NCBI GenBank assembly: GCA_038064855.1 | Contig: JBBTSE010000002.1 | Location: 8,530-72,529 of the forward strand | DNA from: Patescibacteria group bacterium | GTDB taxonomy: Bacteria; Patescibacteriota; Minisyncoccia; Ryanbacterales; GWA2-47-10b | Direction of reading: 5' to 3' | Length of the DNA stretch: 64,000 bases | Shown here: one piece after another, positions 1-18,469 of the stretch | How the letters are laid out: every line of letters starts with the position of its first letter | How positions within the stretch are numbered: the stretch's first letter is position 1 | Made by a program: the position numbers and the translations under genes | Notes under the pieces: model-generated | The model's database searches: none | Seen by the model: only the letters and a program-made list of their open reading frames with translations | What the model was told of the DNA's origin: nothing

Positions 1-1892
1 AGGCCCGGGGCGAGAGTCCCGAGCACCACGAGCGCCGAGCCCACGCCTACGCCGAGGCCAAGGGCTGGCAGGTCCGCGAGGTCTACCACCTCGAAGCGGT
101 GAGCGGGAAGTCGGTCCTCGGGCACCCGGAGGCCGAACGGATGCTCAAAGACGTCCGGGAAGGCCGGATCACCGGGCTCATCTTCTCGAAGCTCGCGCGC
201 AACACCCGAGAACTCCTTGATCTCGCCGATCGCTTCCGCGAGTACGAGGCCGATCTCATCTCGCTCCAGGAGTCGATCGACACCTCGAGCCCCGCGGGCC
301 GGCTCTTCTACACGATGATCGCGGCCATGGCGCAGTGGGAGCGGGAGGAGATCGCAGAACGCGTCGCGGCCTCGGTTCCGATCCGGGCCAAGCTCGGCAA
401 GCCGCTCGGAGGAGCGGCTCCGTTCGGCTACCGCTGGGAGGCCCGAGAACTCGTCCCGGCCCCGAACGAGGCTCCAATCAGGAAGCTCCTCTACGACCTC
501 TTCCTTGAGCATCGGCGGAAGAAGACGGTCGCTCGGCTGTTGAACGACGCCGGCCACCGAACCCGCAACGGATCGAAGTGGACGGACACGACCGTCGACC
601 GTCTGTTGCGTGATCCCACGGCCAAGGGTCTTCGAAAAGCCAACTACACCCGCAGCACCGGCGACAAGAAGCACTGGGTGCTCAAGCCCGAGGCGGACTG
701 GGTCTTCTCCGAGGTGGAGGCGATCGTCTCGGAGGAGATCTGGGAGCGGGCGAACGCCATCCTCGATGCGCGGCGAAAGACCGGAAAGGGACCTGCTCGG
801 CGAACCGTCCACCTCTTCGCGGGTCTCGTCTTCTGCCACTGCGGCGGGAAGATGTCCGTTCCCTCTAACTCCCCCAAGTACATCTGCCCGAAGTGCCGCA
901 ACAAGATCCCAACCGACGACCTCGAAGCCGTCTTCCGGGAGCAGCTCAAGGCGTTCGTCTTCTCGCCCGGCGACATTGCCGAGTACCTCACCCAGGCCGA
1001 TGAGGAGATGAAGAAGAAGGAGGATCTCCTGGGAGTCCTGGAGGGTGAGCGCGGCAAGCTCACCCGAGAGATGGACCGGGTGATGCAGCTCTACCTCTCG
1101 GACCAGATCTCGAAGGATGGCTTCGGCCGGGAATACCGTCCGATGGAGGAGCGCCTTAAGCAACTCGAAGACCAGATCCCGGCTCTCCAGGGCGAGCTCG
1201 ACTTCTTCCGCATCCAGCACCTCTCTCGGGACGAGGTGGTTGTCGAATCCCAAGACCTCGCCTCGCGCTGGTCAGACCTGACGCAGGACGAGAAGCGGGA
1301 GCTGGTCGAGAACATCACCGAACGGATCACGGTCGGCACCAACGAGGTCCAGATCGAGGTGTTCCACCTCCCTTTCGTCGGTAAGACCGTGGCAGAAAGG
1401 CAACGCAGTGCCATGGCAGCGTTGCCTTCTTGCCATTGGCTCCTCAGGGGCTCGAAACCACGAGGAAAAAACTACCCCCAGACTCCCAAATCCCTCGGCG
1501 ACCACCTCAAGCGGTGCCGGCTCGATCTCGGCCTCCGGCAAGAGGATGTTGCCGCCCAGATCAGGGTGACGGCGGAGACGATCTGCCATTGGGAGCTGGG
1601 CCAGCACGAGCCACCTGTCCGCCTCATCCCGGCAATCCACACCTTCCTCGGCTTCTGTCCCATCAATCCCGCCTGGACCCTTGGCGAGCGCCTTCGGGCT
1701 GCTCGGGAGGCCCGGGGGCTTTCTCGAAGACGAGTTGCCGGGCTGGTCGGTCTCGATGAGGGGACGGTCGCGCGGGCGGAGCAGGGCATCCCAAGGATGG
1801 CGCGGCGATCGGTCACGGCCGCCAGCGCCATCTTCACCGTTGGCGGCGTAGTCAAGCTGTCCACCAAAGCGGGGGAGGATCAGAATCACTGA
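1..1892 (+). CDS. Large serine recombinase (5'-partial; resolvase catalytic domain + recombinase domain + zinc ribbon + coiled coil) fused to two C-terminal XRE-type HTH domains
   Basis: The frame is open from nt 3 with no upstream start, so the gene begins before the window. GLIFSKLARN...SLQESIDTSS...MIAAMAQWERE matches the resolvase catalytic core. CHCGG...CPKCRNKI is a zinc ribbon. The tail (LGDHLKRCRLDLGLRQEDVAAQIRVTAETICHWELG and GERLRAAREARGLSRRRVAGLVGLDEGTVARAEQG) looks like two Cro/C1-type HTH modules. Confidence 0.8.
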   Translation, partial: ARGESPEHHERRAHAYAEAKGWQVREVYHLEAVSGKSVLGHPEAERMLKDVREGRITGLIFSKLARNTRELLDLADRFREYEADLISLQESIDTSSPAGRLFYTMIAAMAQWEREEIAERVAASVPIRAKLGKPLGGAAPFGYRWEARELVPAPNEAPIRKLLYDLFLEHRRKKTVARLLNDAGHRTRNGSKWTDTTVDRLLRDPTAKGLRKANYTRSTGDKKHWVLKPEADWVFSEVEAIVSEEIWERANAILDARRKTGKGPARRTVHLFAGLVFCHCGGKMSVPSNSPKYICPKCRNKIPTDDLEAVFREQLKAFVFSPGDIAEYLTQADEEMKKKEDLLGVLEGERGKLTREMDRVMQLYLSDQISKDGFGREYRPMEERLKQLEDQIPALQGELDFFRIQHLSRDEVVVESQDLASRWSDLTQDEKRELVENITERITVGTNEVQIEVFHLPFVGKTVAERQRSAMAALPSCHWLLRGSKPRGKNYPQTPKSLGDHLKRCRLDLGLRQEDVAAQIRVTAETICHWELGQHEPPVRLIPAIHTFLGFCPINPAWTLGERLRAAREARGLSRRRVAGLVGLDEGTVARAEQGIPRMARRSVTAASAIFTVGGVVKLSTKAGEDQNH

Positions 1893-4382: not shown

Positions 4383-4478
4383 AATAGAATAGAGCCAGCT
4401 CCAAGTGGAGCTGGCTCGTGGCATTTCAGAGCTATCCCGATTCCACGAACGAGAAACGAGATGTAGCGGCCGCTGTTG
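4383..4478. repeat. Direct repeat copy A: hairpin GAGCCAGCTCCAAGTGGAGCTGGCTC plus a frameshifted remnant of the radC 3' end
   Basis: About 75% identical to 17990-18080. Both contain gagccagctcc...ggagctggctcgt...tttcaga.c..tcccg.ttccacgaacgaga...tagcgg. Confidence 0.7.
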
Positions 4479-4977: not shown

Positions 4978-7900
4978 CTACAGAACGTCCGTGGCCCTGC
5001 GGACACGTCGAGCGCCCTTTGCAAGTATGCGCGACACGGCCTCTACCCTGGCGCGGGAGTCGCTCGCGGTGGGTGCCCGGTAGTTGACGCGCACTTTGTA
5101 GCCGCGAACGGTCGCTGGTGTACCGGCTTCCGCCTCCTCGGTGTCGAGATGCACTATCAGCCCTTCCGGCGAGCAGACGGTGACGCGGGCTAGGCTCTCT
5201 GACGCAAGCGACGACTGGACTGCTCGTGAAAGGTCACGCAGCGCCGACTTCTCTCGCGCGACGGCGATCACTCGGTCGAAGCCGGCGGCAAGGCACTTCT
5301 GGATGTTCGCAAGCTCATGCTCGGGGTTGGTCGAGATTGAGATCTCGCAGGCGATGCGCTTTCCGTCACGCGAGAGCGCTACGTCGACTCGGCCCGCGCC
5401 ATCGAGGACGTCTTTCTCGATGGTCGCCTTCCAGCCGCGGTCCTCGGCAAGTCGCTTGATGAGGTGTTGGAGGTACTTGTGTTCGGCTCCGCCTCTGCCG
5501 GACGCCGGTGCGGCGGGTGACGTCGTCGCTGCAGGCGGACGTCGCGATGGCGGCGGTGTTGCCCTTGGCGGTAGGCAAGAGGTTGCAGGGACGGGGTGCT
5601 CCGCCACTACTGGCTCCATAGCCGCGATCGGGGTGTCGATCGTCGTTGGCCGCGGCTGCTCAACGTCGGTAGCCGCACGTTTGACTCCGAGCCCCGGCTC
5701 GACCGCTTCTCGCGGCCTCGCGTAGCTCTCGCGCGAAAGCCGGACAATCTCGTCCACCCGGGACCGAGCCTCGGAGGGATCGACCGCCTCGATCGGGAAC
5801 GTTCGCAAGTTGAAGTCCTGGTCACTGCGCTCAAGCCGGCAAATCGCCTCGCCCACGGCGAGGGACTGGAGATCGTTGGCATCGAACGAAGAGAATCCGT
5901 GCGCAAGCAGCCGCGCGTCCTGATCGCCGACGCGAAAGCAGATCCGGGTGGCGGGGTTGGTGAGCACAGCACTCGAAAGCCGTCCGTCCTGGTCTTGGAG
6001 TTGCCGCGTGTCTTGGTGCGCGAGCACCAGACCGAGATGGTACTTGCGAGCTTCGGCAAGGAGAGCGGCTACCGACGGGGTGGCAAAGTTCTGGAACTCG
6101 TCGATATAGAGGTGGAAGTCGGGCCGCTCGCTCTCGGCGAGCTGCTGGCGCGAGAGCGCAGCCTGATGGAATTTGGAGACAAGAAGCGCACCCAAGAGGT
6201 GCGCGTTTTCGTGTCCGATGATGCCCTGCGAGAGCTTGGCGAGGAAGATCTTCCGGCTGTCCATGAGTGACCGGAGGTCGAGCGTGCCTCGGCGCTGACC
6301 GACCATGAGCCGGATGAGCTTCGGGCGCAGGAACGCATCGAGTCGCGTCAAGATCGAGGCCGACGGATTGCCTTTGAGGAGCGGGTACTCCTTTTCGAAG
6401 TAGTAGACGACCTCCGCGTCCCGGACGCTCGCAAGGAACTCCTTCCGGAATGCCGGATCGACGAGGAACTTCCGGAGATCGAGGAGCGACCCGCCGGCGT
6501 CACTCTCGAGGAACGCGAGGATCGCGTTCCCCAAGATGGACGTCATCTGGTCCCCCCAGGATGTCGCGAATCTCCGGAAGATCGCGACGAGATCAGAGGA
6601 CAAAAGGTTCTTCTCGACCTCGGAGTGCGCTTCGAGCACGTTGAACCCGACCGGGTACTCCTCATCGGACGGATCGAGGATCGCAACGTCCGAGAACCGT
6701 TTCTCGGGAATCCGAGCAAGCACTTCGTCGATGAGGTCTCCGTGCGGGTCGAGCACCCCGACGCCGTCGCCGTTCTCGATGTCCTGCAGGATCATCCGGA
6801 GGAGCAGCGTGGATTTTCCGGTCCCTGATGCCCCGACCACGTAGGTGTGGCGCATCCGGAGATCAGGATCGATCGTGACCGTCCTGGTCTTCCCGCGATG
6901 CGTGTTCTCGCCAAGGACAACGCCCTTCCGCGAAGCTCCGGCCGCCGCTCTCGTGGTCCGTGCTTCCCGAGCGAGGCTCTCGGAGCGCACGGACACCGAC
7001 GGAAGGTGGACGAGCGAGACGACTTCATCACTCGAAAGGAGCATGCCTGACCGGTGCGTGCGCCGAGCGAGGAGATCTTCCTCGTGAAGGTCGTCCGGAT
7101 AGTCGTCGTTGGAAAGCGGGATCAGCTCATTGCCGCCGGGGTTCGCAAACTGCCCAAGGCTTCCGCCGAGCGTCCTGACCAATGACCATGCGCGTTCACG
7201 ATCGGGGCAGCGTGCGGCGACACGCACCACAGCAGCGAAGAAAGGATGCGCGATTTTCTCGGCTGCCTGCGATAAAATCTCGGGAGCGTCGGCAAAGAAG
7301 CTATCCCCATCACCATCCGTGACCGCGCGAAGAACGCTCGGCGCCCACGGGTTGCGTGTCGCCTGCGAGAGCACCTGTACGAGACCGACCTCATTGTCGC
7401 GAAGGTCCCCGAGTGCTGCCACCACCGAGATCAGAGGATCGACGTCGAAGTCCTTGGCAATCTTGAGCGGGAGCATGAACTCACGCGACAGCCCGAAGTC
7501 GACCACGAGGCCGTGCCCGTCATCCGCGCAGCTCCAGAGATCGCGAAGCGACTCGGTCGCTGGAACGATGCCCGTCTCGGGGAAGTAGGCACCGAGCGCA
7601 CGCCGGATATCCGCGGAGTCGGACGCACGACACGCGAGCGTGACTCGCACCTCGCCCGATCGGCCAGTTAGCTCGAAGGAGACCGGGTGCTCGACCGGCG
7701 AGAGCGCCAACAGAAACCGCTCGGCGCGCTCCTTGGTGACCTTCAGATCGCCGGGCAGCGTGATCGTGTGCTCGACGATCTCATCACCGAGCCGATCTTC
7801 GAGGGGAAGCGGTTCGTCATCGACCTCGCTTTGGAGGTGCCCGGCCTCGTTCGCCCGAGCGCTCGACCCGCGAAGGCGCTCCACCCAGCGGCTCAAGCGC

Positions 7901-8067
7901 GTGTGCTTGCGTCCATCGTCGCGCTGGCCCTGTCGTGGAGGCAGCGTGTGGCCGAAGAACGGCCGGAACGGAGGCTCGACGACGACCGGCGCATCCCACA
8001 CCTGCCAACCCCGACCGCGGATCTCCCAGCGGTAGAACTCCTGGGTGAGATGCTCCTCGACCGTCAC
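4978..8067 (-). CDS. Giant TraD/TrwB/VirD4-like (FtsK-HerA superfamily) P-loop ATPase with long N-terminal extension and a C-terminal restriction-endonuclease-like domain
   Basis: Walker A YVVGASGTGKSTLLL followed by DPHGDL; Walker B HLYIDEFQNFA; LVLAHQ motif. Pro/Ser-rich linker, then a C-terminal region (HKYLQHLIKRL...GRVDVALSRDGKRIACEISIS...FDRVIAV) with a PD-(D/E)xK-like pattern. It is the last gene of a five-gene operon. Confidence 0.8.
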   Translation of the reverse strand: MTVEEHLTQEFYRWEIRGRGWQVWDAPVVVEPPFRPFFGHTLPPRQGQRDDGRKHTRLSRWVERLRGSSARANEAGHLQSEVDDEPLPLEDRLGDEIVEHTITLPGDLKVTKERAERFLLALSPVEHPVSFELTGRSGEVRVTLACRASDSADIRRALGAYFPETGIVPATESLRDLWSCADDGHGLVVDFGLSREFMLPLKIAKDFDVDPLISVVAALGDLRDNEVGLVQVLSQATRNPWAPSVLRAVTDGDGDSFFADAPEILSQAAEKIAHPFFAAVVRVAARCPDRERAWSLVRTLGGSLGQFANPGGNELIPLSNDDYPDDLHEEDLLARRTHRSGMLLSSDEVVSLVHLPSVSVRSESLAREARTTRAAAGASRKGVVLGENTHRGKTRTVTIDPDLRMRHTYVVGASGTGKSTLLLRMILQDIENGDGVGVLDPHGDLIDEVLARIPEKRFSDVAILDPSDEEYPVGFNVLEAHSEVEKNLLSSDLVAIFRRFATSWGDQMTSILGNAILAFLESDAGGSLLDLRKFLVDPAFRKEFLASVRDAEVVYYFEKEYPLLKGNPSASILTRLDAFLRPKLIRLMVGQRRGTLDLRSLMDSRKIFLAKLSQGIIGHENAHLLGALLVSKFHQAALSRQQLAESERPDFHLYIDEFQNFATPSVAALLAEARKYHLGLVLAHQDTRQLQDQDGRLSSAVLTNPATRICFRVGDQDARLLAHGFSSFDANDLQSLAVGEAICRLERSDQDFNLRTFPIEAVDPSEARSRVDEIVRLSRESYARPREAVEPGLGVKRAATDVEQPRPTTIDTPIAAMEPVVAEHPVPATSCLPPRATPPPSRRPPAATTSPAAPASGRGGAEHKYLQHLIKRLAEDRGWKATIEKDVLDGAGRVDVALSRDGKRIACEISISTNPEHELANIQKCLAAGFDRVIAVAREKSALRDLSRAVQSSLASESLARVTVCSPEGLIVHLDTEEAEAGTPATVRGYKVRVNYRAPTASDSRARVEAVSRILAKGARRVRRATDVL

Positions 8068-8106: not shown

Positions 8107-8763
8107 CTACTTGTAGAACTCCCGCAAGACGGGCTTGCGTTCGAGCTCGGAGAGCGGCCGGAGACCCTTGGCCTGGGTTAAAGCGTCGATCACTTCCAAG
8201 ACGGCGCCATGCACCGCCTCCTGGAACATGAGCGTGGTGTCGATGCGAAAGTAGGTGAGCGGCCGGAAGAGGCGTTCGAACACCCAGCCGACCACCGGGA
8301 TCACGACGATGTAGACTTCCTTGCCGCTCTCGGAGAGCAGAACACCGACGATTCCCAGGCCGATCACGACAGCCAGAACTGAGACGAGCAGTCCCACGCC
8401 CATGCCGAGCTGAGAGCCGATCAGATTCCAGGCCACCATGAAGCCGATGACGGCTGCTGCGGTGGGCAGAACCGGCGACGGCCGCGGTTCCCCCAACCAC
8501 GTCGAGACGAAGAAGCTGTTGCCGAACGGTGCCGCGCAGATGTCAAAGCTGTGCCTGCCACGCGAAACCCGCAGGTACTCGCGCTTCGCGGACAGCAGAC
8601 CACCCTCTTGCCAGTCGATACGCGAAGGCTTTCCGTCGGGAACCTGACGCTTCTCGATCGCCTTCTCGACCGCGGTGTAGAACTCGAGCGACGAGGTCTC
8701 GAGATTCTCAATGAGCCGATGCCAATGGGAGATGATTGCAGCGGTGGGTATGGATCTCGGCAT
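8107..8763 (-). CDS. Hypothetical membrane protein (operon partner of the ATPase)
   Basis: Two central transmembrane helices (AAVIGFMVAWNLIG..., GLLVSVLAVVIGLGIVGVLL). Six-bp gap to the upstream gene and 40 bp to the ATPase gene. Start could be 8790 or 8763 (GGGGTGA RBS). Confidence 0.55.
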   Translation of the reverse strand: MPRSIPTAAIISHWHRLIENLETSSLEFYTAVEKAIEKRQVPDGKPSRIDWQEGGLLSAKREYLRVSRGRHSFDICAAPFGNSFFVSTWLGEPRPSPVLPTAAAVIGFMVAWNLIGSQLGMGVGLLVSVLAVVIGLGIVGVLLSESGKEVYIVVIPVVGWVFERLFRPLTYFRIDTTLMFQEAVHGAVLEVIDALTQAKGLRPLSELERKPVLREFYK

Positions 8764-8795
8764 GGCTTCACCCCTTGCTCCGGGGGTCACTCACA

Positions 8796-9359
8796 TCAAG
8801 GCTCTTGGTCCTTGTGCCGCGCGACACCCTCGTTGTGGTAGGCGAAGCCGGAGTAGGAGCCGTAGGGCGAGGAAAGCGTTCCAGTCCCGTCGGTGGACTC
8901 GGTTCGCGAATGGTCCTCGGTGAGCATACCGGCGAGAGTCCGGTCACGCCGGTGGTAGTTGGTCAGACCACGACGCTCGATGGTGTACTCGTAGACAAAG
9001 CGGTTGGTTGTGAAGCGAATCACCTTGCCGGCGTGGACCACTGCGTCATCCGTAAACTCGCCGCAATCTTTCGTATCTTGACTACACGGACCGCTCGGTG
9101 TGACGCAGGTCGTGATGGTCAAGCAGTAGCCCGCGATGATTGACTCTACGATCTCTGGCTTGCCGCCATCGCGCTCGACGGTTCTCCTCTTCGTTTTCCA
9201 AACCGAGAACGACATCCCCGTGTCCGCGTCGATGAGCTGGAACATGTTCGCGTTGAAGAACACGGTTCTTGAGGAGAAGCTCGAGGCCAGGGCAGGTGAT
9301 GCGATACCCGTAGCGACCGCTCCAATAAGTACAACTGTCGCTGCGGTCTTGTTCACCAT
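8796..9359 (-). CDS. Secreted hypothetical protein (signal peptide)
   Basis: The N-terminus MVNKTAATVVLIGAVATGIASPALA looks like a Sec signal. The gene is tightly packed in the operon. Confidence 0.55.
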   Translation of the reverse strand: MVNKTAATVVLIGAVATGIASPALASSFSSRTVFFNANMFQLIDADTGMSFSVWKTKRRTVERDGGKPEIVESIIAGYCLTITTCVTPSGPCSQDTKDCGEFTDDAVVHAGKVIRFTTNRFVYEYTIERRGLTNYHRRDRTLAGMLTEDHSRTESTDGTGTLSSPYGSYSGFAYHNEGVARHKDQEP

Positions 9360-9378
9360 ACGAGCGTCCAGCCCAGAG

Positions 9379-12300
9379 TTACGGCACGACGGTCAGCGGG
9401 CCGCTGGCGCAGACTGTCCCCGATGCCGTGCGGTAGTTGCAAACGCGGAGGGTGTACGTCCCCGCGGTCACGATCACGGAACCGCCAACGGTCAACTGGC
9501 CGATCGTACCGACGGGGCGTGTGTTCAGATCGGGTCGCGGTATCGGTGTGCCGTTCACATCCCACTGCAGGCTTAAGGCACCCTGGTTGTCCGAGTCTCC
9601 GAATACGAACCCGCTCCCGTTCACGCGGACATCATAGCCATTGAAGAGATTGCATGTCTGGCCGGCACGGCAGGTACCCGTGATCGATGAGATGACGGGC
9701 GATGGTTGATAGACCGCGAACTGGACGGTGTTGCTCCGCTGGCCGTTGGAGAAACTGGGCACGGGGTTATAGAGCTGGACAAAGTAGGTTCCTGGCCTCT
9801 CCGGGAATCCGACGCCGGAGCCCTCACCGAACGAATCGACATGGTAGGTCGCGAGTGTGCTGCTCGCAGGTGTTGCTCGAAGGCTCCCAAGCCCTGGCGG
9901 ATCAGAAGCACCCCACAAGAGATACAGGATCCCGGTACTGAAGTTCTGACCCGTGAATGAAAGATCGACAGCCCCCGTATTGAGCGTCACAGATGAAGGC
10001 GTGAAGTTATTGATTGCTGGCACGGGGAGCGCGGCGGTCGGTGTCGGTGAAGGGGTCGCTGTTGGGCTTGGAGTGATGCAGGCGAATTTCTGGATCCGAT
10101 CGATATCTGCGACATAGACATTGCTGGCAGAGTCAACGGCCACGCCGGTCGGTCCCCTGAACTCACCGCCGCCAGAGCCAGACATCCCCCATTGACCGAT
10201 GAATGTGCCGCTCTGGCTGAACTTCTGGATGCGACGGTTGGTAGTGTCGGCGACGTACACGTTACCACCATCGATCCGTACATCCTCCGGCCCCATGAGT
10301 TCGCCGACACCACTGCCCCCAGGTCCTCCCCACTTCGTGAGAAAAAATCCACCTGAACTAAATTTCTGGATGCGATTGTTCCCCGTATCGGCAACGTACA
10401 GGTTGCCTGTTGCATCCACCGCTACGGCGCGTGGTTGCAACAGCTCGCCGTCGAGACTTCCGACAGTCCCGATCTTCCCCACGAAGCCGCCGTTACCATC
10501 AAATATTTGGATTCTATGATTGTTTCGATCAGCTACATAGACCTTACCGCTAGTATCGAGAGCGACACCCGTGGGCTGATCGAATTGCCCATCGCCGGTA
10601 CCCCGCGTACCCCATACGAGCACGAATGTACCGGCAGTCGTGAACTTGTGAATGCGGTGATTCAGCCTATCGGTGACATACACATGCGTGCCATCAGTAG
10701 CGACGCCCGAAGGCGTGTCGAACTGTCCGTCACCCGCGCCGTAGCTTCCCCAACTACCAAGAAAGACCCCGTCGCTCGTGAATTTCTGTACGCGAAAGTT
10801 CTCCCTCTCGGTGACATACACGTTGTCGGCGGCGTCAACGGCGAGATGGTAGGCGCCGTTGAGCTGCCCATCCCCAGAACCAAGAGTTCCCCACTTGGTC
10901 ACAAATGTGTACTGGCACCCAGCGGTCGCTGTTGGGGTCGGCGTCGGAGAAGGAGGAGGTGTCGTGTAGAAGACCCGTGCCTGCACATAGTCCGCACGGC
11001 AGGTGTTGGTAGGCGTCGTGCCACGAGCCCAGCACCACATCCGTACGCGGAAGTTCAAGTCCGAAATCTCTCCCGGCGACCAGCTTCGTCCCCAGGTGTC
11101 GGTTGACCCACCGATCGTCCAGGTGCCACGACCACCAGAGAGACCACTCCCTCGGCAGTTGGGCGTCCCAGGTGTGGTGCTCACACATTCGCCGCCGCCT
11201 TCCGGATCAGGATTCACCATGTAAGCCGGAATGAACGAGCTACCGCCGTCGTACGACAGATCAGTGAAGATGTCGTCGAAGTAGTTACCTACGCCTACGT
11301 GTCCTTCAATCTGAACCTCGATACCGGTGACGGTTGCATCAGAGGGGAGTGAGAAGCCGAATCCGCCTACTTGGTGAGTTGGCCGCACGCTGCCAACCTT
11401 CATGCCGACTGCATCGAGATCATCGTCGGCGAAGAGGTTCTGGCCGTCGACCCAACCACCCGTCTGACTGCCGCCCAAGAGAAAACCCGTGTCAGTTGAG
11501 ACCGGGCTTGGCGTGTTTGTTGGAACTGGCGTTGGGCTGGGACTGGCGAGAGCGGGAGGTAGGCACACAAGGACGATGGTGTCCGTATCCTTCTGGCCAT
11601 CAATCCCAACCGTGCGGAGCTTGAAGGCCCGCGATGCTTTCTTGGGACCGTTCCGGCTCGACTTCAAGCGTACCCGAAGATCGACATCGCTCGTGTAGAG
11701 TGAGCCGATGAAGGGCAGGGCACCAACACCTGCAAGAGCATCGAGGAGCCCCATCCGGTTCATGGCGTCGTCCGCGTTCTTCTCCGAATCCTTCTCGCTT
11801 GGTTTCAAGAGTTCGTAGGACGCGATGCCCGGAGACACGCATGCGGGTAGCCGTAGGTCCTGGTGGTTGAAGATCAGCCGCGTGTTGAAGGTGCAGGCGC
11901 CATCAGCCGCGCCATCGAGATCGCACGCGGCACCGTCAGTGCAGGGCTGCTTCGACTTTGGCACACACTTGCGTGAGTCGAGTAGTAGCTCACCCGCAAG
12001 AGAAAACTCGCCGAAGCAGTCGGTCTTGGCAGAGCCGCCGCCCATCACGAGTGACTTGTCAGAGGCAGAACCGCACGAAAGGAGTCCTTTCAAGACATCA
12101 ATGTCGCCCTTGTCGATGACGCCGTTGCCGTTCAAGTCTCGCGGATCTTCGGGGTTTGCAGGGCGGCCGAGGGCGTCGCGGATGATTTTCTCATCTTTCG
12201 CATCAATACGGGTATCATCGGTCAAGTCACCACGGAACCGCGGCAGGCCGACTTCCAGCCGAATAATTCGTTGAGTACCACCCGGGAGATATACGAGGAG

Positions 12301-12897
12301 GCTGGCGACCCCGTAATCAATACCTGTAATTACAAACCGGGTCTTGCCTTGGCTTTCCTCACGTCGCACTGTGGCAACGCTCGGGTGAGCGGTCTCGATG
12401 AGGCTTTCCTGTAGGCCAGTTACATCAATGTCGACACCTTCGACGTAGGCATGAAGGGAAAGACTCTCTTCCTCGGCTGGGCGGACCGCCATCAGCTCCG
12501 GCACCTCAATTGCAGACCCATAGTCGAAATCGGGAAGCACTAATATCTCGACGCTATCGCGTAACACCGTCGTGCCAACTCGTCCGGCAATCCTCAGTGT
12601 AACGGGCCCGACGACGTCTGCAGGTAGCGGGAGCTGGATCATTCCGGAACCACCTGAGGCCCGGCCCGCCCCGCCGGGTACCGTCGCGACTAGCCCATCG
12701 AAGGTCACCCCGTGCGTATCTACCAGCACACTCACAATGTCGCCCCGCTGGAATTGCTCGCCAGGTGCGGGGCTAGTGATTTCGAGCATTGGGTCAGCCG
12801 CGGCTCGCCCAATCACGAGGAGCAAGACCGCAACCGTAACCACGACGATCGCAGTCGCTAGTAATGCCAACCGATTCATATACCAGGACATTATCAT
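9379..12897 (-). CDS. Large cell-surface protein with NHL-repeat beta-propeller, dockerin-like motif, Pro/Thr linkers and Ig-like C-terminal domains
   Basis: There is an N-terminal transmembrane/signal segment. Six NHL-type blades are visible (NFRVQKF, NHRIHKF, NHRIQIF, NNRIQKF, NRRIQKF, IDRIQKF). DLNGNGVIDKGDIDVL is dockerin-like. [21 protein letters not shown] are linkers. Confidence 0.75.
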   Translation of the reverse strand: MIMSWYMNRLALLATAIVVVTVAVLLLVIGRAAADPMLEITSPAPGEQFQRGDIVSVLVDTHGVTFDGLVATVPGGAGRASGGSGMIQLPLPADVVGPVTLRIAGRVGTTVLRDSVEILVLPDFDYGSAIEVPELMAVRPAEEESLSLHAYVEGVDIDVTGLQESLIETAHPSVATVRREESQGKTRFVITGIDYGVASLLVYLPGGTQRIIRLEVGLPRFRGDLTDDTRIDAKDEKIIRDALGRPANPEDPRDLNGNGVIDKGDIDVLKGLLSCGSASDKSLVMGGGSAKTDCFGEFSLAGELLLDSRKCVPKSKQPCTDGAACDLDGAADGACTFNTRLIFNHQDLRLPACVSPGIASYELLKPSEKDSEKNADDAMNRMGLLDALAGVGALPFIGSLYTSDVDLRVRLKSSRNGPKKASRAFKLRTVGIDGQKDTDTIVLVCLPPALASPSPTPVPTNTPSPVSTDTGFLLGGSQTGGWVDGQNLFADDDLDAVGMKVGSVRPTHQVGGFGFSLPSDATVTGIEVQIEGHVGVGNYFDDIFTDLSYDGGSSFIPAYMVNPDPEGGGECVSTTPGTPNCRGSGLSGGRGTWTIGGSTDTWGRSWSPGEISDLNFRVRMWCWARGTTPTNTCRADYVQARVFYTTPPPSPTPTPTATAGCQYTFVTKWGTLGSGDGQLNGAYHLAVDAADNVYVTERENFRVQKFTSDGVFLGSWGSYGAGDGQFDTPSGVATDGTHVYVTDRLNHRIHKFTTAGTFVLVWGTRGTGDGQFDQPTGVALDTSGKVYVADRNNHRIQIFDGNGGFVGKIGTVGSLDGELLQPRAVAVDATGNLYVADTGNNRIQKFSSGGFFLTKWGGPGGSGVGELMGPEDVRIDGGNVYVADTTNRRIQKFSQSGTFIGQWGMSGSGGGEFRGPTGVAVDSASNVYVADIDRIQKFACITPSPTATPSPTPTAALPVPAINNFTPSSVTLNTGAVDLSFTGQNFSTGILYLLWGASDPPGLGSLRATPASSTLATYHVDSFGEGSGVGFPERPGTYFVQLYNPVPSFSNGQRSNTVQFAVYQPSPVISSITGTCRAGQTCNLFNGYDVRVNGSGFVFGDSDNQGALSLQWDVNGTPIPRPDLNTRPVGTIGQLTVGGSVIVTAGTYTLRVCNYRTASGTVCASGPLTVVP

Positions 12898-12923
12898 GTT
12901 AATATTCTAGCACGATACTTTGC

Positions 12924-15900
12924 CTAGGGTTGTGGACTACTCGGGGGCACTCTAACAAACTGATCGACTACACCATCGAGCAAGTTAGCGATCTCGGCCG
13001 GAAGTTGCGGTCGCGAAAGGATTGATCGTGATGGAAATGGGGCATCCGGTATCCCGCAGTAGCCGACGGTGCCAGAGTAAACCTCCTGGATATCTCGCTG
13101 GAGTCTAAGATATCTCGCCAAAACAGTCGCGTCTGTGTGCAGATAGGGGCCGACTCCGGTCACCTGAGAGCCGGCTTGTGATAGCGTCTGACTCTGAATC
13201 GGCGACACGAGGTCCGTCAGGACCGCGGGGGAGCCCAAGAGCTGCGCCCCACCACTCGGCGGGCTCCATGCCACCGTACAGAAGGGCGGGGTCACAGGGA
13301 GATCCTGCAAATAGTCGGCGAGATGACAGAGGGCAGCATCCAGGCTGTTGGCATCATCCGCTGACGATGATGCAGAAACAAAATGCGTAGGTATCGAACC
13401 CGGCCGTGAGTTAAGCGTACGGAGGGCATCATTGGATGGGCAATCCGAAACCGGGCAGAGGTTCGCGACAGCTCCGTGGTGAGCCTGCCGAAGGTAGTTA
13501 CGCAGATCGTCATCGTCGTCAGAGAACCGAAGAACCGTGTCAACGATGCCGGCGACATCCGTCGAATACTCGAAGGGACAGGATACTATTGCGGACGCGA
13601 AGTCGAGGCCGACGGTGGCCCAGCGTGTGCCCTCGTGCGGTGTGTCGATGCTGACGAGCCTACGAACATCGCCCGCGAGAAAGTTCGACGGTCGCCTATA
13701 GAGGCCTCCAAGATGTTGATTTAATGCTTCAACACAGTCCTGAAAAAGGCCTGGAACCGGTTGGCAGAGTGGAAGAGTCCGAGTAGCCAGGGCACCCATA
13801 CTGTGTGCGACGACGTCGAGTTGGATCGCGACCGCATCGTTGTCGACTCCGAATCGATTGAGGCAGCCTCGAAGATCGCGAGCGATCTCGCCGGCGACAG
13901 TGGCGAAGGACGCGAATTGACTACCGGTGTAATCAGCTACGCAGTAGTAGTGCTTGTGAGGAGGCCGAATCGCAGGGGGAAAAGTCAGGTGAACGCTCGA
14001 ATCTGGGGGCGAGGCGGAGTTCAGGAATGACCGCCAAGTGTTTCTGCTGCCGCCGAAGCCATGCACGAGAAGAACAGGCGGCCGTAGAAGTCGCACGACT
14101 CGTTCAGGTGAGCTGCAAGGTTGATGAGGTGAAGACGGTGGATCTGGAGTAAACTGAATTGTATAGGGATAGGAACGGTCTCGAGTGGTGTCGTCCCCAA
14201 AATGATCGGGACTCTTGACGATGAAGTAGCCCAGGTGGCGAGTGACCGAGGCAGCGTTCTTTACTTCGGTCGTGCGTACCGATTGGCTGCAGGGATTTTG
14301 TGAAACAGCGCCCGCAAGGGTGTGGATGGATGGATTAAGGGAATTGGCAGGACAGTCGATTGAGAAGGTGATATCGCCCGGTTGCTGGGTCTCAAAAACA
14401 AAAAGGAGACGAGATACTCCGTCGCTGGCAAGCGCAGTTGGGTGCCATGCATAGTACGGAAGTCTAGAGGTAATTGAGGAGATATCTGAATTGACGAGTC
14501 CGGCGGAAGTCGCAAAGGATGAAGCGTCGTAGGTTATTACTTGCACAGAGTTGCAGGTAGATGTGGACGGTGAGCAACGGGGATCTAGGTCGTCGATAAA
14601 GTCGTTGCAGTCGTCGTCAGCGCCATTGGTGCAGGTGGGGTCACCCACGGGACCTTCAATGCCCGGTGGTGCGGGATAGTAACGGCAGGAATCGCCGACG
14701 CAGCGGTCGAGCGTGCATCCGTCCGCATCCTCGCAGTCGCCATTCAGCGCGCAGTCAGCAGAACCACCAATGCAGGCACAGGATGCGTTGCAGGTTTGGC
14801 CGGTTGAGCAATCGGACGGGGAGCCGTCACATTCTTCGTTGCAGCCGGCCTGGATGACATCGTCGCCGCAGTGAGGACCGCCCGCGCACACGCCGGCGGT
14901 GCAGCGGTCGTTGATCGTGCACGGGTCGGGGTCGGTGCAGCTGGTGTTGTTGGGGCGGGACTGTCTTTGGCAAGCGTGTGTAATGAGATTACAGACACCC
15001 GTGTTGCAGTCGTTGGCTAAGCTGGTGCACTGGGTATCGCTGGTGCAGCCGAGTATTTCGCACGCACCGCAGTCGCTTGCGCGGCACGTCTGGCCGCCGG
15101 CACAGCTTGACGGCAATCCGGTGTCACAGGCCTCCGTACCACAGACCCTTCCGTCGCCACACGAGACGGGACGGGGCTGTTGGACACATTGGTCGTTCGA
15201 TTCATTGCAGACACCCGTGTTGCATAGATCAGTCTGAGCGCTGCAATCTCTGGCCGTTCCGCCGACGCAGGTGCCGGCACCGTTGCACGCGTCGTTGATC
15301 GTACAGAACTGTGTATCGTCGCATGAGACGGTGTTGTTCGCTGTGACGCATTGCGCAGTGCTCGGGTTACAGGAGTCATTCGTGCAGGAGTTACCATCGT
15401 TGCAGCTCGTATGGCCGGGATCACTGCACGAACAACCGGCCGAATCGACAACCTGACCAGAGGAAGTCCCCGGACACGAGTCGCTCGCATCCGGAACACT
15501 GTCGCCATCGGCATCCGGAGGTACCCCACCTTGGCAGGTGCATGAAGCGGTGCAGGTCTGGCCGGCCGAGCAGCCGACTGGTGATCCATCACACTGCTCG
15601 CTACCTTCCTTGGTGTTGTTCCCGCAGGTTGTGATTAGCCAGTGTCCGTTGGTGCTCCAACCGGTCCCAGGGGACCCGGAGAGTTGCCACCAGAGGTTCT
15701 GCCCGATGTTCGTTCCCGCGTCGGCGCAGGTCGGTCCGCCGACAACGGTCATCTGTGTACCCGACGGCATCGTCGCCACGAGTGTTCCGGTGACACCTGC
15801 CGGATTGCGCAACCGTAAGTTGTGGCCATCGGCTGTGACGCTTACTGTGATCCCGATCGAGGGAAATGGTGTGAGCCATTCGGCGACCGCACTCCAGCCC

Positions 15901-16205
15901 TCGCGGTTCTGGTCGTCGCGCACCTGCCACCACCGAAAACCATCTGGCGTTACCGTGACGCCGTCACCGATTACCTGGAGGAAGTCGAGTGGTGGGTTTG
16001 TCCCGATCTCTGAGGAGGCAACCCCGGGCCCGTTCCTGAGTTTCAGGCCCGTCCCGCAGGTGTTGACGATCTGGACCTGCTGTCCGACCGAGATGGCAAG
16101 TGCCGGTGTCGCGTGAGCGAGAACCACTGCCGAAAGGAGAATGCTGGCTCCGCGGCACGCTCTCCGTGCCCACAGTCTGGACCAAGTCGCAGGCGTCTCC
16201 GCCAT
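12924..16205 (-). CDS. Secreted multidomain protein: tandem SH3b-like modules, Myxococcus-type cysteine-rich repeats, C-terminal alpha/beta-hydrolase (lipase-like)
   Basis: RBS GGAGGGGAG precedes ATG (MAETPATW...). Signal sequence with RR (WARRACRGASILLSAVVLAHATPALA). Repeats such as CGDGRVCGTEACD...C, and later PVLLVHGFGGSRN plus VVAHSMGALA (GxSxG). The alternative upstream start at 16286 is less likely. Confidence 0.7.
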   Translation of the reverse strand: MAETPATWSRLWARRACRGASILLSAVVLAHATPALAISVGQQVQIVNTCGTGLKLRNGPGVASSEIGTNPPLDFLQVIGDGVTVTPDGFRWWQVRDDQNREGWSAVAEWLTPFPSIGITVSVTADGHNLRLRNPAGVTGTLVATMPSGTQMTVVGGPTCADAGTNIGQNLWWQLSGSPGTGWSTNGHWLITTCGNNTKEGSEQCDGSPVGCSAGQTCTASCTCQGGVPPDADGDSVPDASDSCPGTSSGQVVDSAGCSCSDPGHTSCNDGNSCTNDSCNPSTAQCVTANNTVSCDDTQFCTINDACNGAGTCVGGTARDCSAQTDLCNTGVCNESNDQCVQQPRPVSCGDGRVCGTEACDTGLPSSCAGGQTCRASDCGACEILGCTSDTQCTSLANDCNTGVCNLITHACQRQSRPNNTSCTDPDPCTINDRCTAGVCAGGPHCGDDVIQAGCNEECDGSPSDCSTGQTCNASCACIGGSADCALNGDCEDADGCTLDRCVGDSCRYYPAPPGIEGPVGDPTCTNGADDDCNDFIDDLDPRCSPSTSTCNSVQVITYDASSFATSAGLVNSDISSITSRLPYYAWHPTALASDGVSRLLFVFETQQPGDITFSIDCPANSLNPSIHTLAGAVSQNPCSQSVRTTEVKNAASVTRHLGYFIVKSPDHFGDDTTRDRSYPYTIQFTPDPPSSPHQPCSSPERVVRLLRPPVLLVHGFGGSRNTWRSFLNSASPPDSSVHLTFPPAIRPPHKHYYCVADYTGSQFASFATVAGEIARDLRGCLNRFGVDNDAVAIQLDVVAHSMGALATRTLPLCQPVPGLFQDCVEALNQHLGGLYRRPSNFLAGDVRRLVSIDTPHEGTRWATVGLDFASAIVSCPFEYSTDVAGIVDTVLRFSDDDDDLRNYLRQAHHGAVANLCPVSDCPSNDALRTLNSRPGSIPTHFVSASSSADDANSLDAALCHLADYLQDLPVTPPFCTVAWSPPSGGAQLLGSPAVLTDLVSPIQSQTLSQAGSQVTGVGPYLHTDATVLARYLRLQRDIQEVYSGTVGYCGIPDAPFPSRSILSRPQLPAEIANLLDGVVDQFVRVPPSSPQP

Positions 16206-16314
16206 CTCCCCTCCGTCAGGTTGTCCCCGGTGCCGAGCACCAAGAGCTAGACCGGCCGGAACGCAAAAGTCAACCAGTACCGTCACCTACACCAAATGGT
16301 GTATCTCGCTCGGG

Positions 16315-17989: not shown

Positions 17990-18080
17990 GAAAAGAAAAG
18001 AGCCAGCTCCCTTTGGAAGCTGGCTCGTATCGTTTCAGAACCTTCCCGTGTCCACGAACGAGACATAGCGGTCATCGCCG
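17990..18080. repeat. Direct repeat copy B (hairpin GAGCCAGCTCCCTTTGGAAGCTGGCTC + intact radC 3' end)
   Basis: Matches 4383-4478. Here the radC reading frame is intact through the repeat. Confidence 0.7.
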
Positions 18081-18469
18081 ATCACGACATGGTCGAGAAT
18101 GCGGATGCCGAGGAGGTCTCCGGCCTCTTTGAGGCGGCGGGTGAGCGCAACGTCCTCGGCGGACGGCTCGGGATCTCCCGACGGGTGATTGTGAACGAGG
18201 ATGAGGGTGGCAGCATTCGCGATGATCGCCGCCTTGAACACCTCGCGCGGATGGACGAGCGACGCGGTCAGCGACCCGACCGACACCGTGTTGAAGCCCA
18301 TCACGCGACCCTTGCCGTCGAGGAGCACGGCGATGAACTCCTCGCGGTCGAGCTTCAGGAAGCGGTCACGGAAGGTGCGGAAGATCTGCTCGGAGCCGGC
18401 AACCGGCGAGCCGGCCAGACCGTAGCCGCCTCGCCGCTCTCGGACGACCTTGAGCTCCCACATGGTCAA
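18035..18469 (-). CDS. radC: RadC-like JAB/MPN domain protein
   Basis: HNHPSGDPEPSAEDVALTRRL (JAMM HxHPSG...S..D motif) and C-terminal DDRYVSFVDTGRF. Confidence 0.85.
   Translation of the reverse strand: MTMWELKVVRERRGGYGLAGSPVAGSEQIFRTFRDRFLKLDREEFIAVLLDGKGRVMGFNTVSVGSLTASLVHPREVFKAAIIANAATLILVHNHPSGDPEPSAEDVALTRRLKEAGDLLGIRILDHVVIGDDRYVSFVDTGRF

What the first reader, a model, noticed from the sequence alone, without database searches (positions are those of the whole stretch)
4978..8067. Unusual architecture of the 1029-aa ATPase and presence of a 405-aa core-only paralog 11 kb away
The ATPase core (Walker A GASGTGKST, DPHGDL, Walker B YIDEFQNFA) is flanked by two extensions. One is an approximately 430-aa N-terminal region with no recognisable motif. 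The other is a Pro/Ser/Thr-rich linker leading to an approximately 150-aa domain with D...E.S patterning reminiscent of restriction-endonuclease-like folds.

The paralog at 19239-20456 has only the core. Fusion of a DNA-translocase-type ATPase to a nuclease-like domain is a hallmark of several defence and DNA-processing machines.
Basis: inference. Interest (0 to 1): 0.6.

Follow-up and report, generated by a model that had tools for sequence, protein, structure and literature searches.

The report
Membrane-partnered DNA-pump–nuclease fusion on a mobile island
The 1029-aa gene is real. It encodes an uncharacterised but widespread DNA-pumping ATPase fused to a restriction-enzyme-like nuclease, always paired with a small membrane protein and carried next to the integrase of a mobile genetic island, where it probably cuts foreign or transferred DNA.

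Summary
ORF 4978-8067(-) encodes a 1029-aa protein with no transmembrane segment, in four parts:
- an N-terminal DUF8128 region (aa 1-385), whose best structural matches are Bacillus-phage ATPase N-termini and, weakly, the VirB4/TrwK N-terminal domain;
- a TrwB/VirD4-class ATPase core (aa 385-770) with intact Walker A and B motifs;
- a poorly conserved P/A/T/S linker (aa 795-856);
- a C-terminal domain whose pLDDT-89 model has the alpha-beta-beta-beta-alpha-beta restriction-endonuclease fold, with invariant E884, D895, E908 and K924.

The 405-aa protein at 19239-20456(-) matches only the core (36% identity). It belongs to a separate, better conserved family of roughly 392 aa.

The full architecture recurs in many phyla but in none of 72,556 plasmids. 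It is nearly always preceded by a co-evolving membrane protein of about 220 aa (window 8107-8790). It usually lies next to a large serine recombinase, which in many relatives is integrated in comM. In relatives the core-only paralog sits beside a MOB_C relaxase, a primase and ArdC.

In sibling elements that lack the cassette, the same integrase-proximal slot holds restriction-modification, NACHT, RHS or helicase genes. My best reading is an accessory, membrane-tethered translocase-nuclease conflict module. A role in the element's own DNA transfer is not excluded. It is not a conventional coupling protein.

The parts
4978..8067 (-). Whole gene: 1029-aa DUF8128 / TrwB-like ATPase / restriction-endonuclease-fold fusion protein, no transmembrane segment
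   Evidence: A 100% identical protein is present in an NCBI MAG (P0001).
7933..8067 (-). Conserved N-terminal peptide (aa 1-45): helix, strand and an EPPFxPF motif, followed by a disordered stretch (aa 48-80)
   Evidence: Invariant T8, F11, W14, E15, R19, G20, W21, E31, P32, F37. Model secondary structure.
7003..7785 (-). N-terminal alpha/beta domain (aa ~95-355; DUF8128). Best fold matches are Bacillus-phage ATPase N-termini and VirB4/TrwK.
   Evidence: AF2 model pLDDT 81. Foldseek PDB: TrwK E 2e-5 to 1e-3, TMq 0.30-0.43. BFVD: phage Slash 1e-16, phage G gp156 2e-15 with TMq 0.54. phrog_5156 E 3e-58 over aa 267-790.
5758..6915 (-). TrwB/VirD4-class P-loop ATPase core (aa 385-770). Walker A at nt 6808-6834, DPHGDL at 6733-6750, Walker B at 6082-6108.
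   Evidence: Pfam TrwB_AAD_bind 40.8 bits against a cut-off of 20.5. PDB profile search: TrwB 1e-6. PADLOC mad8 2e-23. Motif coordinates.
5500..5685 (-). P/A/T/S-rich variable linker (aa 795-856)
   Evidence: 63% P/A/T/S. Unconserved and gapped in the alignment.
5113..5499 (-). Restriction-endonuclease-fold (PD-(D/E)xK-like) domain (aa 857-985). Invariant GxGG, H863, Q867, E884, D895, E908, E918, N921, K924, C925.
   Evidence: AF2 pLDDT 89. Foldseek PDB hits. Conservation.
4981..5112 (-). C-terminal beta-hairpin plus long helix (aa 986-1029). In some homologs it is replaced or extended by an AlpA-type HTH_17 domain.
8107..8790 (-). Partner gene: membrane protein of about 220 aa (probable start M10 at nt 8763). 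It has 2 predicted transmembrane segments and lies 39 nt upstream of the ATPase.
   Evidence: Present immediately upstream on the same strand in 74 of 84 loci. Transmembrane prediction. Co-evolution with the ATPase: Spearman 0.79. No Pfam, PADLOC or NCBIfam match.
19239..20456 (-). Core-only TrwB/VirD4-like ATPase paralog (probable start M12 at nt 20423, about 394 aa), no transmembrane segment
   Evidence: In relatives it sits next to a MOB_C (Replic_Relax) relaxase, a primase and ArdC.
3..1892 (+). Large serine recombinase with C-terminal XRE-type HTH domains. Its 5' end is cut by the window edge. It is the integrase of the island.
   Evidence: Pfam Resolvase, Recombinase, HTH_31 and HTH_3. 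In relatives it lies directly downstream of the ATPase and abuts a truncated comM.
8796..16286 (-). Tightly packed upstream genes on the same strand: secreted 187-aa protein, 1172-aa NHL-repeat protein and 1120-aa SH3-domain protein, all with an N-terminal signal or transmembrane segment. This is lineage-specific cargo.
   Evidence: Intergenic gaps of 5, 19 and 26 nt. Not conserved in other loci.
18035..18846 (-). RadC (JAB) and DUF6573 genes, typical accessory genes of transferable islands
   Evidence: RadC recurs in 12 related loci.
22700..22900 (.). Right-hand compositional boundary of the island. GC is about 0.60 to the left and 0.37-0.48 to the right.

Best explanation
**What it is (shown).** The gene encodes a soluble protein in which three parts are joined by a flexible linker:
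- a VirB4-N-terminal-like / phage-ATPase-like alpha/beta domain (DUF8128);
- a TrwB/VirD4-class ring-ATPase core;
- a PD-(D/E)xK (restriction-endonuclease-fold) domain.

It forms a tight, co-evolving two-gene cassette with the membrane protein of about 220 aa (2 predicted transmembrane segments) encoded 39 nt upstream.

**Where it sits (shown).** The cassette is an accessory module in the integrase-proximal slot of a widespread family of integrative, probably mobilizable, elements. These elements carry a large serine recombinase that often targets comM. Their mobilization module contains the core-only paralog next to a MOB_C relaxase, a primase and ArdC.

**How it likely works (inferred).** The membrane partner holds the ATPase at the inner face of the membrane through the N-terminal region. 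The ATPase ring binds and reels in DNA using ATP. The tethered nuclease cuts the DNA being translocated.

**Most probable role (inferred).** A conflict function: defence or exclusion against incoming or competing DNA. This rests on two points. The slot it occupies is filled by restriction-modification, NLR-like, RHS and helicase cassettes in sibling elements. ATPase-nuclease pairings of this superfamily are known from defence.
For: **Architecture.**

**Catalytic-type residues.** Walker A and B, E884, D895, E908 and K924 are invariant across 26 homologs and nearly so across 120.

**Partner gene.** Found in 74 of 84 loci directly upstream. 62 of 77 family members have 1-2 predicted transmembrane segments. 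Pairwise-identity rank correlation with the ATPase is 0.79, against 0.43 for the recombinase.

**Accessory status.** Among comM-junction loci found through the recombinase alone, about 6-7 of 21 carry the cassette and one carries a truncated remnant. In the others the same slot holds:
- type I restriction-modification (L137);
- type III restriction-modification, with an SMC-like ATPase in L144 (L144, L146);
- a NACHT/metallophosphatase protein, PADLOC PDC-S60 (L145);
- an RHS-repeat protein (L112);
- helicases (L156, L158).

**Neighbouring cargo in cassette-bearing loci.** Type I restriction-modification, AAA_15, TIR-NACHT, SLATT, PIN/HNH and kinases.

**Other points.** The best PADLOC match is the HerA-like Mad8. 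The full architecture is absent from 72,556 plasmids, which is not expected for a general conjugation component.
Against: - No experiment exists, and no PADLOC model covers the whole protein or its partner.
- The cassette is unusually fixed in position, always the last or second-to-last unit before the integrase. It is well conserved (45-55% identity across phyla), which looks more like a backbone gene than typical fast-turnover defence cargo.
- A VirB3-like/VirB4-like gene order, together with a co-resident T4CP-like paralog, MOB_C relaxase, primase and ArdC, fits a transfer role equally well.
- The canonical Lys of (D/E)xK is Ser910.
- The defence content of the large upstream neighbours is only modest.
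- PLSDB is biased towards cultured taxa, whereas this family lives in uncultured soil and groundwater phyla.
Confidence: 0.45

Rival explanations
1. **Transfer-machinery reading.** The cassette is the element's own VirB3/VirB4-like motor. It would be a docking and energising ATPase, anchored by the membrane partner. It would work with the core-only T4CP-like paralog and the MOB_C relaxase to export the excised element, or to plug into and remodel a helper's type IV secretion system. The nuclease would process the DNA, by linearising or trimming it, at the pore.
For: - The N-terminal fold is nearest to TrwK/VirB4 and to a 'component of type IV transporter system' protein.
- A small membrane protein lies directly upstream, as virB3 does for virB4.
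- Relatives carry the paralog, a MOB_C relaxase, a primase, ArdC and RadC in the same element.
- Polytopic or large surface proteins lie directly upstream in several lineages.
- The cassette has a fixed position and orientation next to the integrase.
Against: - No other mating-pair-formation genes were recognised.
- Sibling elements with the same recombinase and paralog lack the cassette.
- No plasmid carries the architecture.
- VirB4 profiles score far below their cut-offs (16.8 against 643 bits).
- No known VirB4 or T4CP carries a nuclease domain (my own knowledge).
- The TrwK structural match is weak (TMq 0.30-0.43) and only about 20-fold better in E-value than unrelated FAD oxidases.
Confidence: 0.3
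2. **Integration/excision or maintenance accessory.** The protein would assist the recombinase as a directionality or regulatory factor, or resolve and segregate the excised circle in an FtsK-like manner. The endonuclease-fold domain would act mainly in DNA binding.
For: - Immediate adjacency and co-orientation with the integrase in about 35 loci.
- Some homologs end in an AlpA/excisionase-type HTH_17 domain.
- Moderate co-variation with the recombinase (0.43).
Against: - The integrase type can be swapped for a tyrosine integrase (L045, L054).
- About two thirds of closely related comM-targeting recombinases work without the cassette.
- Invariant acidic residues and lysine argue for catalysis rather than binding alone.
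- A membrane partner is not expected for a recombination cofactor.
Confidence: 0.1
3. **Conventional coupling protein.** The gene would be a conventional type IV coupling protein (VirD4/TraD/TrwB) with decorative extensions.
For: Pfam TrwB_AAD_bind, T4SS-DNA_transf and TraG-D_C hits lie above the gathering scores. The NCBI name is 'type IV secretion system DNA-binding domain-containing protein'.
Against: - No N-terminal transmembrane anchor.
- Curated TraD/VirD4 family models score 20-41 bits against cut-offs of 250-650.
- The N- and C-terminal extensions, 385 aa and 235 aa, are as conserved as the core.
- No adjacent relaxase or type IV secretion system. In relatives the relaxase sits beside the other paralog.
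Confidence: 0.03

Closest known systems
Type IV coupling proteins (TrwB of R388, VirD4, TraD)
   Same: Same class of ring-ATPase core, with the all-alpha insertion. Pfam TrwB_AAD_bind is above threshold, and TrwB is the nearest solved sequence.
   Different: No transmembrane anchor. It has a 385-aa structured N-terminal region and a C-terminal nuclease-fold domain. Curated T4CP family models are far below cut-off. No adjacent relaxase or type IV secretion system.
VirB4/TrwK with its small membrane partner VirB3/TrwM
   Same: Overall layout: N-terminal alpha/beta domain plus C-terminal ATPase, no transmembrane segment of its own, and a small membrane protein encoded directly upstream. TrwK is the top PDB fold match for the N-terminal region.
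   Different: The match is weak (TMq 0.30-0.43). VirB4 sequence models do not hit. The core is closer in sequence to T4CPs. The partner is twice the size of VirB3 and unrelated in sequence. The nuclease domain is extra, and no other channel genes were found.
phrog_5156 and Bacillus-phage proteins (phage G gp156, Slash, JL)
   Same: They share the distal N-terminal domain and the ATPase core (phrog_5156 E 3e-58 over aa 267-790). They are the best fold matches for the N-terminus (E 1e-16 to 3e-13, TMq 0.54-0.57).
   Different: They are about 550-910 aa, with no match to the C-terminal nuclease domain. They are phage-borne and of unknown function.
HerA-type ATPase plus nuclease pairs (HerA-NurA repair; HerA-DUF4297 and HerA-SIR2 defence; Mad8 of MADS; DptH of Dnd restriction)
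   Same: A FtsK/HerA-superfamily ring translocase coupled to a nuclease or effector. The PADLOC mad8 model is the best defence-library hit (2e-23), with weak HerA and DndH hits. Mad8 is described as HerA-like.
   Different: Here the nuclease is fused rather than encoded separately. There is no HAS-barrel N-terminus and no Mad2-7 or DptF/G partners. There is a dedicated membrane partner instead.
CloDF13-type mobilization pair (own coupling protein plus MOB_C relaxase), compared with the 405-aa paralog
   Same: In relatives the core-only paralog is encoded next to a Replic_Relax (PF13814) protein. That family is classed as the MOB_C relaxase family and is itself PD-(D/E)xK.
   Different: The paralog has no transmembrane segment, and the window's own island lacks the relaxase. 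The C-terminal nuclease domain of the 1029-aa protein is not detectably related to the co-resident MOB_C proteins (hhalign probability 0.5%). The CloDF13 comparison itself rests on my own knowledge.

Membership tests
Type IV coupling protein (VirD4/TraD/TrwB) | N-terminal transmembrane anchor | tested here: not met
   Maximum Kyte-Doolittle 19-residue window score is 1.2. There are no segments at or above 1.6 in this protein, and none in 59 of 71 family members.
Type IV coupling protein (VirD4/TraD/TrwB) | TrwB-type nucleotide-binding domain with all-alpha domain and Walker A/B motifs | tested here: met
   PF10412 scores 40.8 bits against a cut-off of 20.5, over aa 396-719. Walker A and B are invariant.
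Type IV coupling protein (VirD4/TraD/TrwB) | Reaches the curated family thresholds (NCBIfam TraD/VirD4 models) | tested here: not met
   Best score is 40.8 bits against a cut-off of 366 (SXT_TraD). The CD1115 VirD4-like model scores 34.1 against 250.
Type IV coupling protein (VirD4/TraD/TrwB) | Genetic linkage to a relaxase and a type IV secretion system | tested here: not met
   There is no relaxase or VirB-type gene among the ORFs scanned in the island. In relatives the MOB_C relaxase lies beside the other paralog, several kb away.
VirB4/TraC/TrbE | Sequence membership (CagE_TrbE_VirB / VirB4 models) | tested here: not met
   No PF03135 hit at E<=0.1 on the whole protein, nor at E<=10 on the N-terminal alignment. 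TIGR00929 scores 16.8 bits against 643.
VirB4/TraC/TrbE | N-terminal domain fold like the VirB4 N-terminal domain | tested here: inconclusive
VirB4/TraC/TrbE | Embedded in a set of mating-pair-formation genes (VirB3, VirB6, VirB8 and others) | tested here: not met
   Only a small membrane protein of unknown family lies upstream. De novo clustering of 84 loci found no other recurrent channel gene.
PD-(D/E)xK (restriction-endonuclease-fold) nucleases | alpha-beta-beta-beta-alpha-beta core fold | tested here: met
   The model (pLDDT 89) has, in model numbering, H10-25, E29-36, E41-49, E52-59, H64-76 and E81-86. Foldseek hits AF1548 (5.7e-5), R2 RLE, Can2 (TMq 0.43-0.46, rmsd 4.4-4.8 A), Bax1, EcoT38I, PaqCI and Cas4.
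PD-(D/E)xK (restriction-endonuclease-fold) nucleases | Conserved D ... (D/E)xK catalytic residues on strands 2 and 3 | tested here: inconclusive
   D895 (strand 2) and E908 (strand 3) are invariant. The +2 position is Ser910, not Lys. An invariant K924 lies on the following helix and an invariant E884 on strand 1. Active-site geometry was not inspected.
PD-(D/E)xK (restriction-endonuclease-fold) nucleases | Metal-dependent phosphodiesterase activity | not testable with these tools
   Needs a biochemical assay.
MADS defence system (Mad8) | Mad8-type ATPase | tested here: met
   The PADLOC mad8 model scores 2.2e-23 over aa 382-742, and 1.2e-17 for the paralog.
MADS defence system (Mad8) | Co-occurrence with the mandatory Mad6 kinase and Mad7 DptG-like protein, and with the methylase and specificity genes | tested here: not met
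   No PADLOC hit to mad2-7 among the island proteins scanned.
Pfam DUF8128 (PF26449) | Match to the family model on the N-terminal region | tested here: inconclusive
   Precomputed hits are 'faint' for this protein and unmarked or weak in relatives. The local Pfam copy lacks the model.

The most novel reading that the evidence does not exclude
The upstream membrane protein and the 1029-aa protein form a previously undescribed, widespread two-gene system. It would be a membrane-anchored, VirB4/T4CP-derived DNA translocase with a built-in restriction-fold nuclease, which intercepts and destroys DNA at the cell envelope. It would then be a new class of defence or exclusion system evolved from conjugation ATPases and spread by comM-targeting mobilizable islands. 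Alternatively, it is the core of a minimal DNA export device not seen before.
Probability: 0.35. Interest if true: 0.75.

Novelty: new variant of a known kind. Interest (0 to 1): 0.55.

Why it matters
**If it is a defence or exclusion cassette.** It would add a membrane-tethered translocase-nuclease derived from type IV secretion ATPases to the list of immune mechanisms. It would also show conjugation machinery parts being turned against incoming DNA.

**If it is a transfer motor.** It would point to a very reduced DNA-export apparatus in poorly studied phyla such as Acidobacteriota, Verrucomicrobiota, Bacteroidota and Patescibacteria.

**In either case.**
- It defines the conserved end of a large family of islands, many targeting comM, that ferry restriction-modification, NLR-like and other conflict genes across phyla.
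- It gives a function-level hypothesis for DUF8128.
- It gives a hypothesis for thousands of proteins now labelled only 'type IV secretion system DNA-binding domain-containing protein'.

Tried and rejected
**Searches that found nothing**
- Pfam at E<=10 on the N-terminal (A2) and C-terminal (A1) alignments gave no consistent family.
- A PDB sequence-profile search with the C-terminal domain gave nothing meaningful.
- hhalign of the C-terminal domain against the co-resident MOB_C/Replic_Relax proteins gave probability 0.5%, so a relaxase-fusion idea was dropped.
- A representative-library search with the C-terminal profile found 2839 proteins. The 150 listed all carry the domain at their C-terminus and look like the same architecture or fragments of it, so no new context emerged.
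- Literature searches for DUF8128, for Replic_Relax with coupling protein and serine recombinase, for comM islands, and for FtsK-HerA nuclease fusions found no description of this family. Iyer et al. 2004 is not held.
- No comM fragment was found in the window or in the 5 kb to its left.

**Readings rejected**
- A MADS system: only the Mad8-like core matches.
- A conventional T4CP: no transmembrane segment and sub-threshold scores.
- A viral origin: only 3 full-length hits among 2.9 million viral contigs.
- Plasmid-borne machinery: 0 of 72,556 plasmids carry the full architecture.


Full report
**1. The observation**

ORF 4978-8067 on the minus strand is open for 1029 codons. The quoted motifs are present at these positions:
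- GASGTGKST at aa 412-420 (nt 6808-6834);
- DPHGDL at aa 440-445;
- YIDEFQNFA at aa 654-662 (nt 6082-6108).

The second ORF, 19239-20456(-), aligns with aa 365-761 only, at 36% identity and E 6e-66.

The long ORF is not a GC-rich chance frame. A database search returned more than 3000 relatives. The best 120 match 95-100% of the length at 50-100% identity, and one is an identical protein from an NCBI MAG labelled 'Patescibacteria group bacterium'. Conservation is spread over the whole protein, except for a disordered stretch at aa 48-95 and the P/A/T/S-rich linker at aa 795-856 (63% P/A/T/S).

**2. Anatomy of the 1029-aa protein**

*The protein has no membrane anchor.* The highest 19-residue Kyte-Doolittle mean is 1.2, so no transmembrane segment is predicted.

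*ATPase core (aa 385-770).*
- It hits Pfam TrwB_AAD_bind, T4SS-DNA_transf and TraG-D_C just above their gathering scores.
- By profile, TrwB is the nearest solved sequence, followed by DotL, DptH and HerA.
- Curated TraD, VirD4 and VirB4 models score 17-41 bits against cut-offs of 250-650.
- In the defence library the best match is the HerA-like Mad8 model (2e-23). No other MADS component is present.

*C-terminal domain (aa 852-1029).*
- Modelled with a 32-sequence alignment, it gives pLDDT 89.3 and an alpha-beta-beta-beta-alpha-beta core.
- Foldseek against the PDB returns almost only restriction-endonuclease-fold proteins among its better matches. These are AF1548, the R2 restriction-like endonuclease, Can2 (TMq about 0.45, rmsd 4.4-4.8 A), Bax1, EcoT38I, PaqCI and Cas4.
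- Invariant residues fall where that fold places its active site: E884 on strand 1, D895 on strand 2, E908 on strand 3, and E918/N921/K924 on the following helix.
- The canonical lysine two residues after E908 is Ser910. Whether K924 substitutes for it in space was not checked.
- No Pfam or PDB sequence model recognises this domain.

*N-terminal region (aa 1-385).*
- The model has pLDDT 81. It shows a conserved N-terminal peptide, a disordered spacer, and an alpha/beta domain at aa ~95-355.
- In the PDB its top hits are copies of TrwK/VirB4 from R388 (E 2e-5 to 1e-3, TMq 0.30-0.43). Unrelated FAD oxidases follow closely.
- VirB4 C-terminal-domain-only entries and TrwB do not appear in the top 50. 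I therefore infer that the match is to the VirB4 N-terminal domain.
- Against viral models the matches are stronger: Bacillus phage Slash (1e-16), phage G gp156 (2e-15, TMq 0.54, rmsd 5.3 A), phage JL, and a 'component of type IV transporter system' protein (1.8e-3).
- PHROG family 5156, of unknown function, matches aa 267-790 at 3e-58.
- Newer Pfam labels this region DUF8128.

The N-terminus is therefore a known domain of unknown function with a VirB4-like or phage-ATPase-like fold. It is not a T4CP membrane anchor.

**3. Genomic context**

*The island in the window.*
- Window positions 1 to about 22,800 have 58-65% GC, and the rest has 37-54%.
- The high-GC stretch continues at least 5 kb to the left of the window.
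- The ATPase is the last gene of a tightly packed minus-strand run, with gaps of 26, 19, 5 and 39 nt. In order, the run is:
  1. a 1120-aa SH3 protein;
  2. a 1172-aa NHL-repeat protein;
  3. a secreted 187-aa protein;
  4. a 227-aa protein with two predicted transmembrane segments;
  5. the ATPase.
- A large serine recombinase with C-terminal HTH domains lies 3 kb away and is cut by the window edge.
- RadC, DUF6573, the 405-aa paralog, HicAB and a Nudix gene lie towards the right boundary.

*What is conserved around the ATPase elsewhere.* A scan of one genome per species gave 80 loci from many phyla, including Acidobacteriota, Verrucomicrobiota, Bacteroidota, Planctomycetota, Gemmatimonadota, Binatia and Patescibacteria.
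- The membrane-protein gene is found in 74 of 84 loci, almost always 30-90 nt upstream on the same strand.
- The serine recombinase is found in 53 of 84 loci. In about 35 of these it lies 200-500 nt downstream on the same strand.
- Two loci have a tyrosine integrase in that position instead.
- Beyond the recombinase lies a comM gene cut at a fixed point, '...MNP|CPCG'. This marks the integration site.
- At least 17 loci have a core-only paralog within the 10-kb flank, usually upstream of the cassette.
- In the clearest cases the order is: paralog, ArdC, Replic_Relax, DnaG-like primase, variable genes, membrane protein, ATPase, recombinase, comM'.
- Replic_Relax (PF13814) is the MOB_C relaxase family, and is itself a PD-(D/E)xK enzyme.
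- The paralog family is about 392 aa, has no transmembrane segment, and is better conserved (65-90% identity) than the large ATPase. It is found on the same contigs as the closest relatives of the large ATPase.

*Where the architecture is absent.*
- No plasmid among 72,556 carries the full architecture. Only core-only relatives occur there.
- Only three viral contigs carry it.

**4. Backbone or cargo?**

I searched metagenomes with the recombinase alone.
- About 21 loci show the recombinase-comM junction with enough upstream DNA. Of these, about 6-7 have the membrane-protein/ATPase cassette directly upstream and one has a truncated remnant.
- The rest lack the cassette, although several still have the core-only paralog 6-8 kb upstream.
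- In those, the slot next to the recombinase holds other genes:
  - type I restriction-modification (L137);
  - type III restriction-modification, with an SMC-like ATPase in L144 (L144, L146);
  - a NACHT/metallophosphatase protein matching PADLOC PDC-S60 (L145);
  - an RHS-repeat protein (L112);
  - helicases, including a Schlafen-like one (L156, L158).
- In cassette-bearing loci the genes just upstream also include type I restriction-modification, AAA_15, TIR-NACHT, SLATT, PIN, HNH and kinase genes.
- A bulk scan of 89 large upstream neighbours showed only a modest share of recognised defence families.
- Pairwise-identity rank correlation is 0.79 between the ATPase and the membrane protein, but 0.43 between the ATPase and the recombinase.

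The two genes therefore form one unit. That unit is an optional module of these islands.

**5. Mechanism**

*Shown.*
- The domain composition.
- Intact ATPase motifs.
- Invariant acidic and basic residues on a nuclease fold.
- An obligate membrane-protein neighbour.
- Accessory status in a conflict-gene slot of a mobilizable island.

*Inferred.* The membrane protein tethers a ring ATPase that pulls DNA and hands it to its own flexibly linked nuclease.

*Role.* I favour a defence or exclusion role (0.45). The main rival is a VirB3/VirB4-like motor for the island's own transfer, or for hijacking a helper's secretion system (0.30). That rival is favoured by the fold of the N-terminus, the gene order, and the co-resident relaxase, paralog, primase and ArdC set. 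A recombination or maintenance accessory role (0.10) and a conventional coupling protein (0.03) are less likely.

**6. Comparison with known families and verdict**

The protein works like the ATPase-plus-nuclease machines of the FtsK/HerA superfamily. Its parts are borrowed from type IV secretion ATPases.
- It fails the membership tests for T4CP: no membrane anchor, sub-threshold curated scores, and no relaxase or type IV secretion system linkage.
- It fails the tests for VirB4: no sequence match and no channel genes.
- It is not a MADS system.
- It belongs to an unstudied family (DUF8128-containing).

I rate it a new variant of a known kind.
- the domain limits differ from those given;
- the N-terminus is a named DUF with a recognisable fold;
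- the paralog is an old, separate family tied to the island's mobilization module.

One caveat applies to the setting. A 60-64% GC island sits in a contig labelled Patescibacteria that otherwise has 37-54% GC. This could be a recent transfer or an assembly or binning chimera. It does not affect the protein-level conclusions.

Noticed in passing
window 22700-23000 (and 1-22800 against 22900-64000): There is a sharp GC break. The left 22.8 kb has 58-65% GC and the rest has 37-54%. The high-GC stretch continues at least 5 kb beyond the left window edge (L001). The contig is labelled Patescibacteria, so this is either a large recently acquired island or a chimeric assembly.
   Followed up: partly
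related loci, e.g. L093, L112, L116, L137, L152, L158, L173, L175: The serine recombinase family integrates at one fixed point inside comM. The truncated comM always ends at '...MNP' before 'CPCG', and the recombinase gene abuts or overlaps it by a few bases. The window itself shows no comM fragment.
   Followed up: yes
window 21213-21739 (-): A HicA toxin / HicB antitoxin pair lies near the right end of the island. A similar pair occurs in L174.
   Followed up: no
window 21910-22635 (-); L173 8249-8722; L175 8363-8878: A Nudix hydrolase gene recurs in these islands: near the island end in the window, and one or two genes upstream of the membrane-protein gene in L173 and L175. Its role is unknown.
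   Followed up: no
window 8796-16286 (-): Three secreted or membrane-anchored proteins (187 aa; 1172 aa with NHL beta-propeller repeats; 1120 aa with an SH3 domain) are packed directly upstream of the cassette. Other lineages have different large membrane or beta-propeller or PEGA proteins in the same place (clusters c34 and c44). These may be adhesin-like cargo.
   Followed up: partly
homologs P0025, P0031, P0032, P0053, P0102, P0103, P0105, P0107, P0108: A subset of full-length homologs carry an AlpA/excisionase-type HTH_17 domain (PF12728). In the sequences examined (P0025, P0031, P0032, P0102, P0105, P0108) it replaces the last 40 residues or so.
   Followed up: no
window 3-1892 (+); L005 13146-15095: The large serine recombinase carries two C-terminal XRE-type HTH domains and a weak DHH_CID match. 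This is an unusual extension for an integrase. In the window it is inverted relative to the usual same-strand arrangement, and four unmatched small ORFs (2157-4898, +) separate it from the ATPase.
   Followed up: partly
window 23116-23732 (+): Just outside the island lie a 169-aa ORF with a D...E.K-type pattern (YraN/UPF0102-like by eye, not scanned) and a tRNA-Pro(TGG) at 23661-23732.
   Followed up: no
window 23989-25353 (+): A 454-aa secreted protein has a long Pro/Thr repeat ([11 protein letters not shown]...) followed by a Cys-rich C-terminus.
   Followed up: no
L125 9074-9733: A remnant holding only the C-terminal 210 residues or so of the ATPase lies directly upstream of the recombinase. 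This is evidence that the cassette decays or is deleted in some islands.
   Followed up: no
BFVD hits G3MBM1 / G3MBM2 (Bacillus phage G gp155 and gp156): Two adjacent phage G proteins both match the N-terminal domain model. This suggests a paired arrangement of related ATPases in a giant phage too.
   Followed up: no
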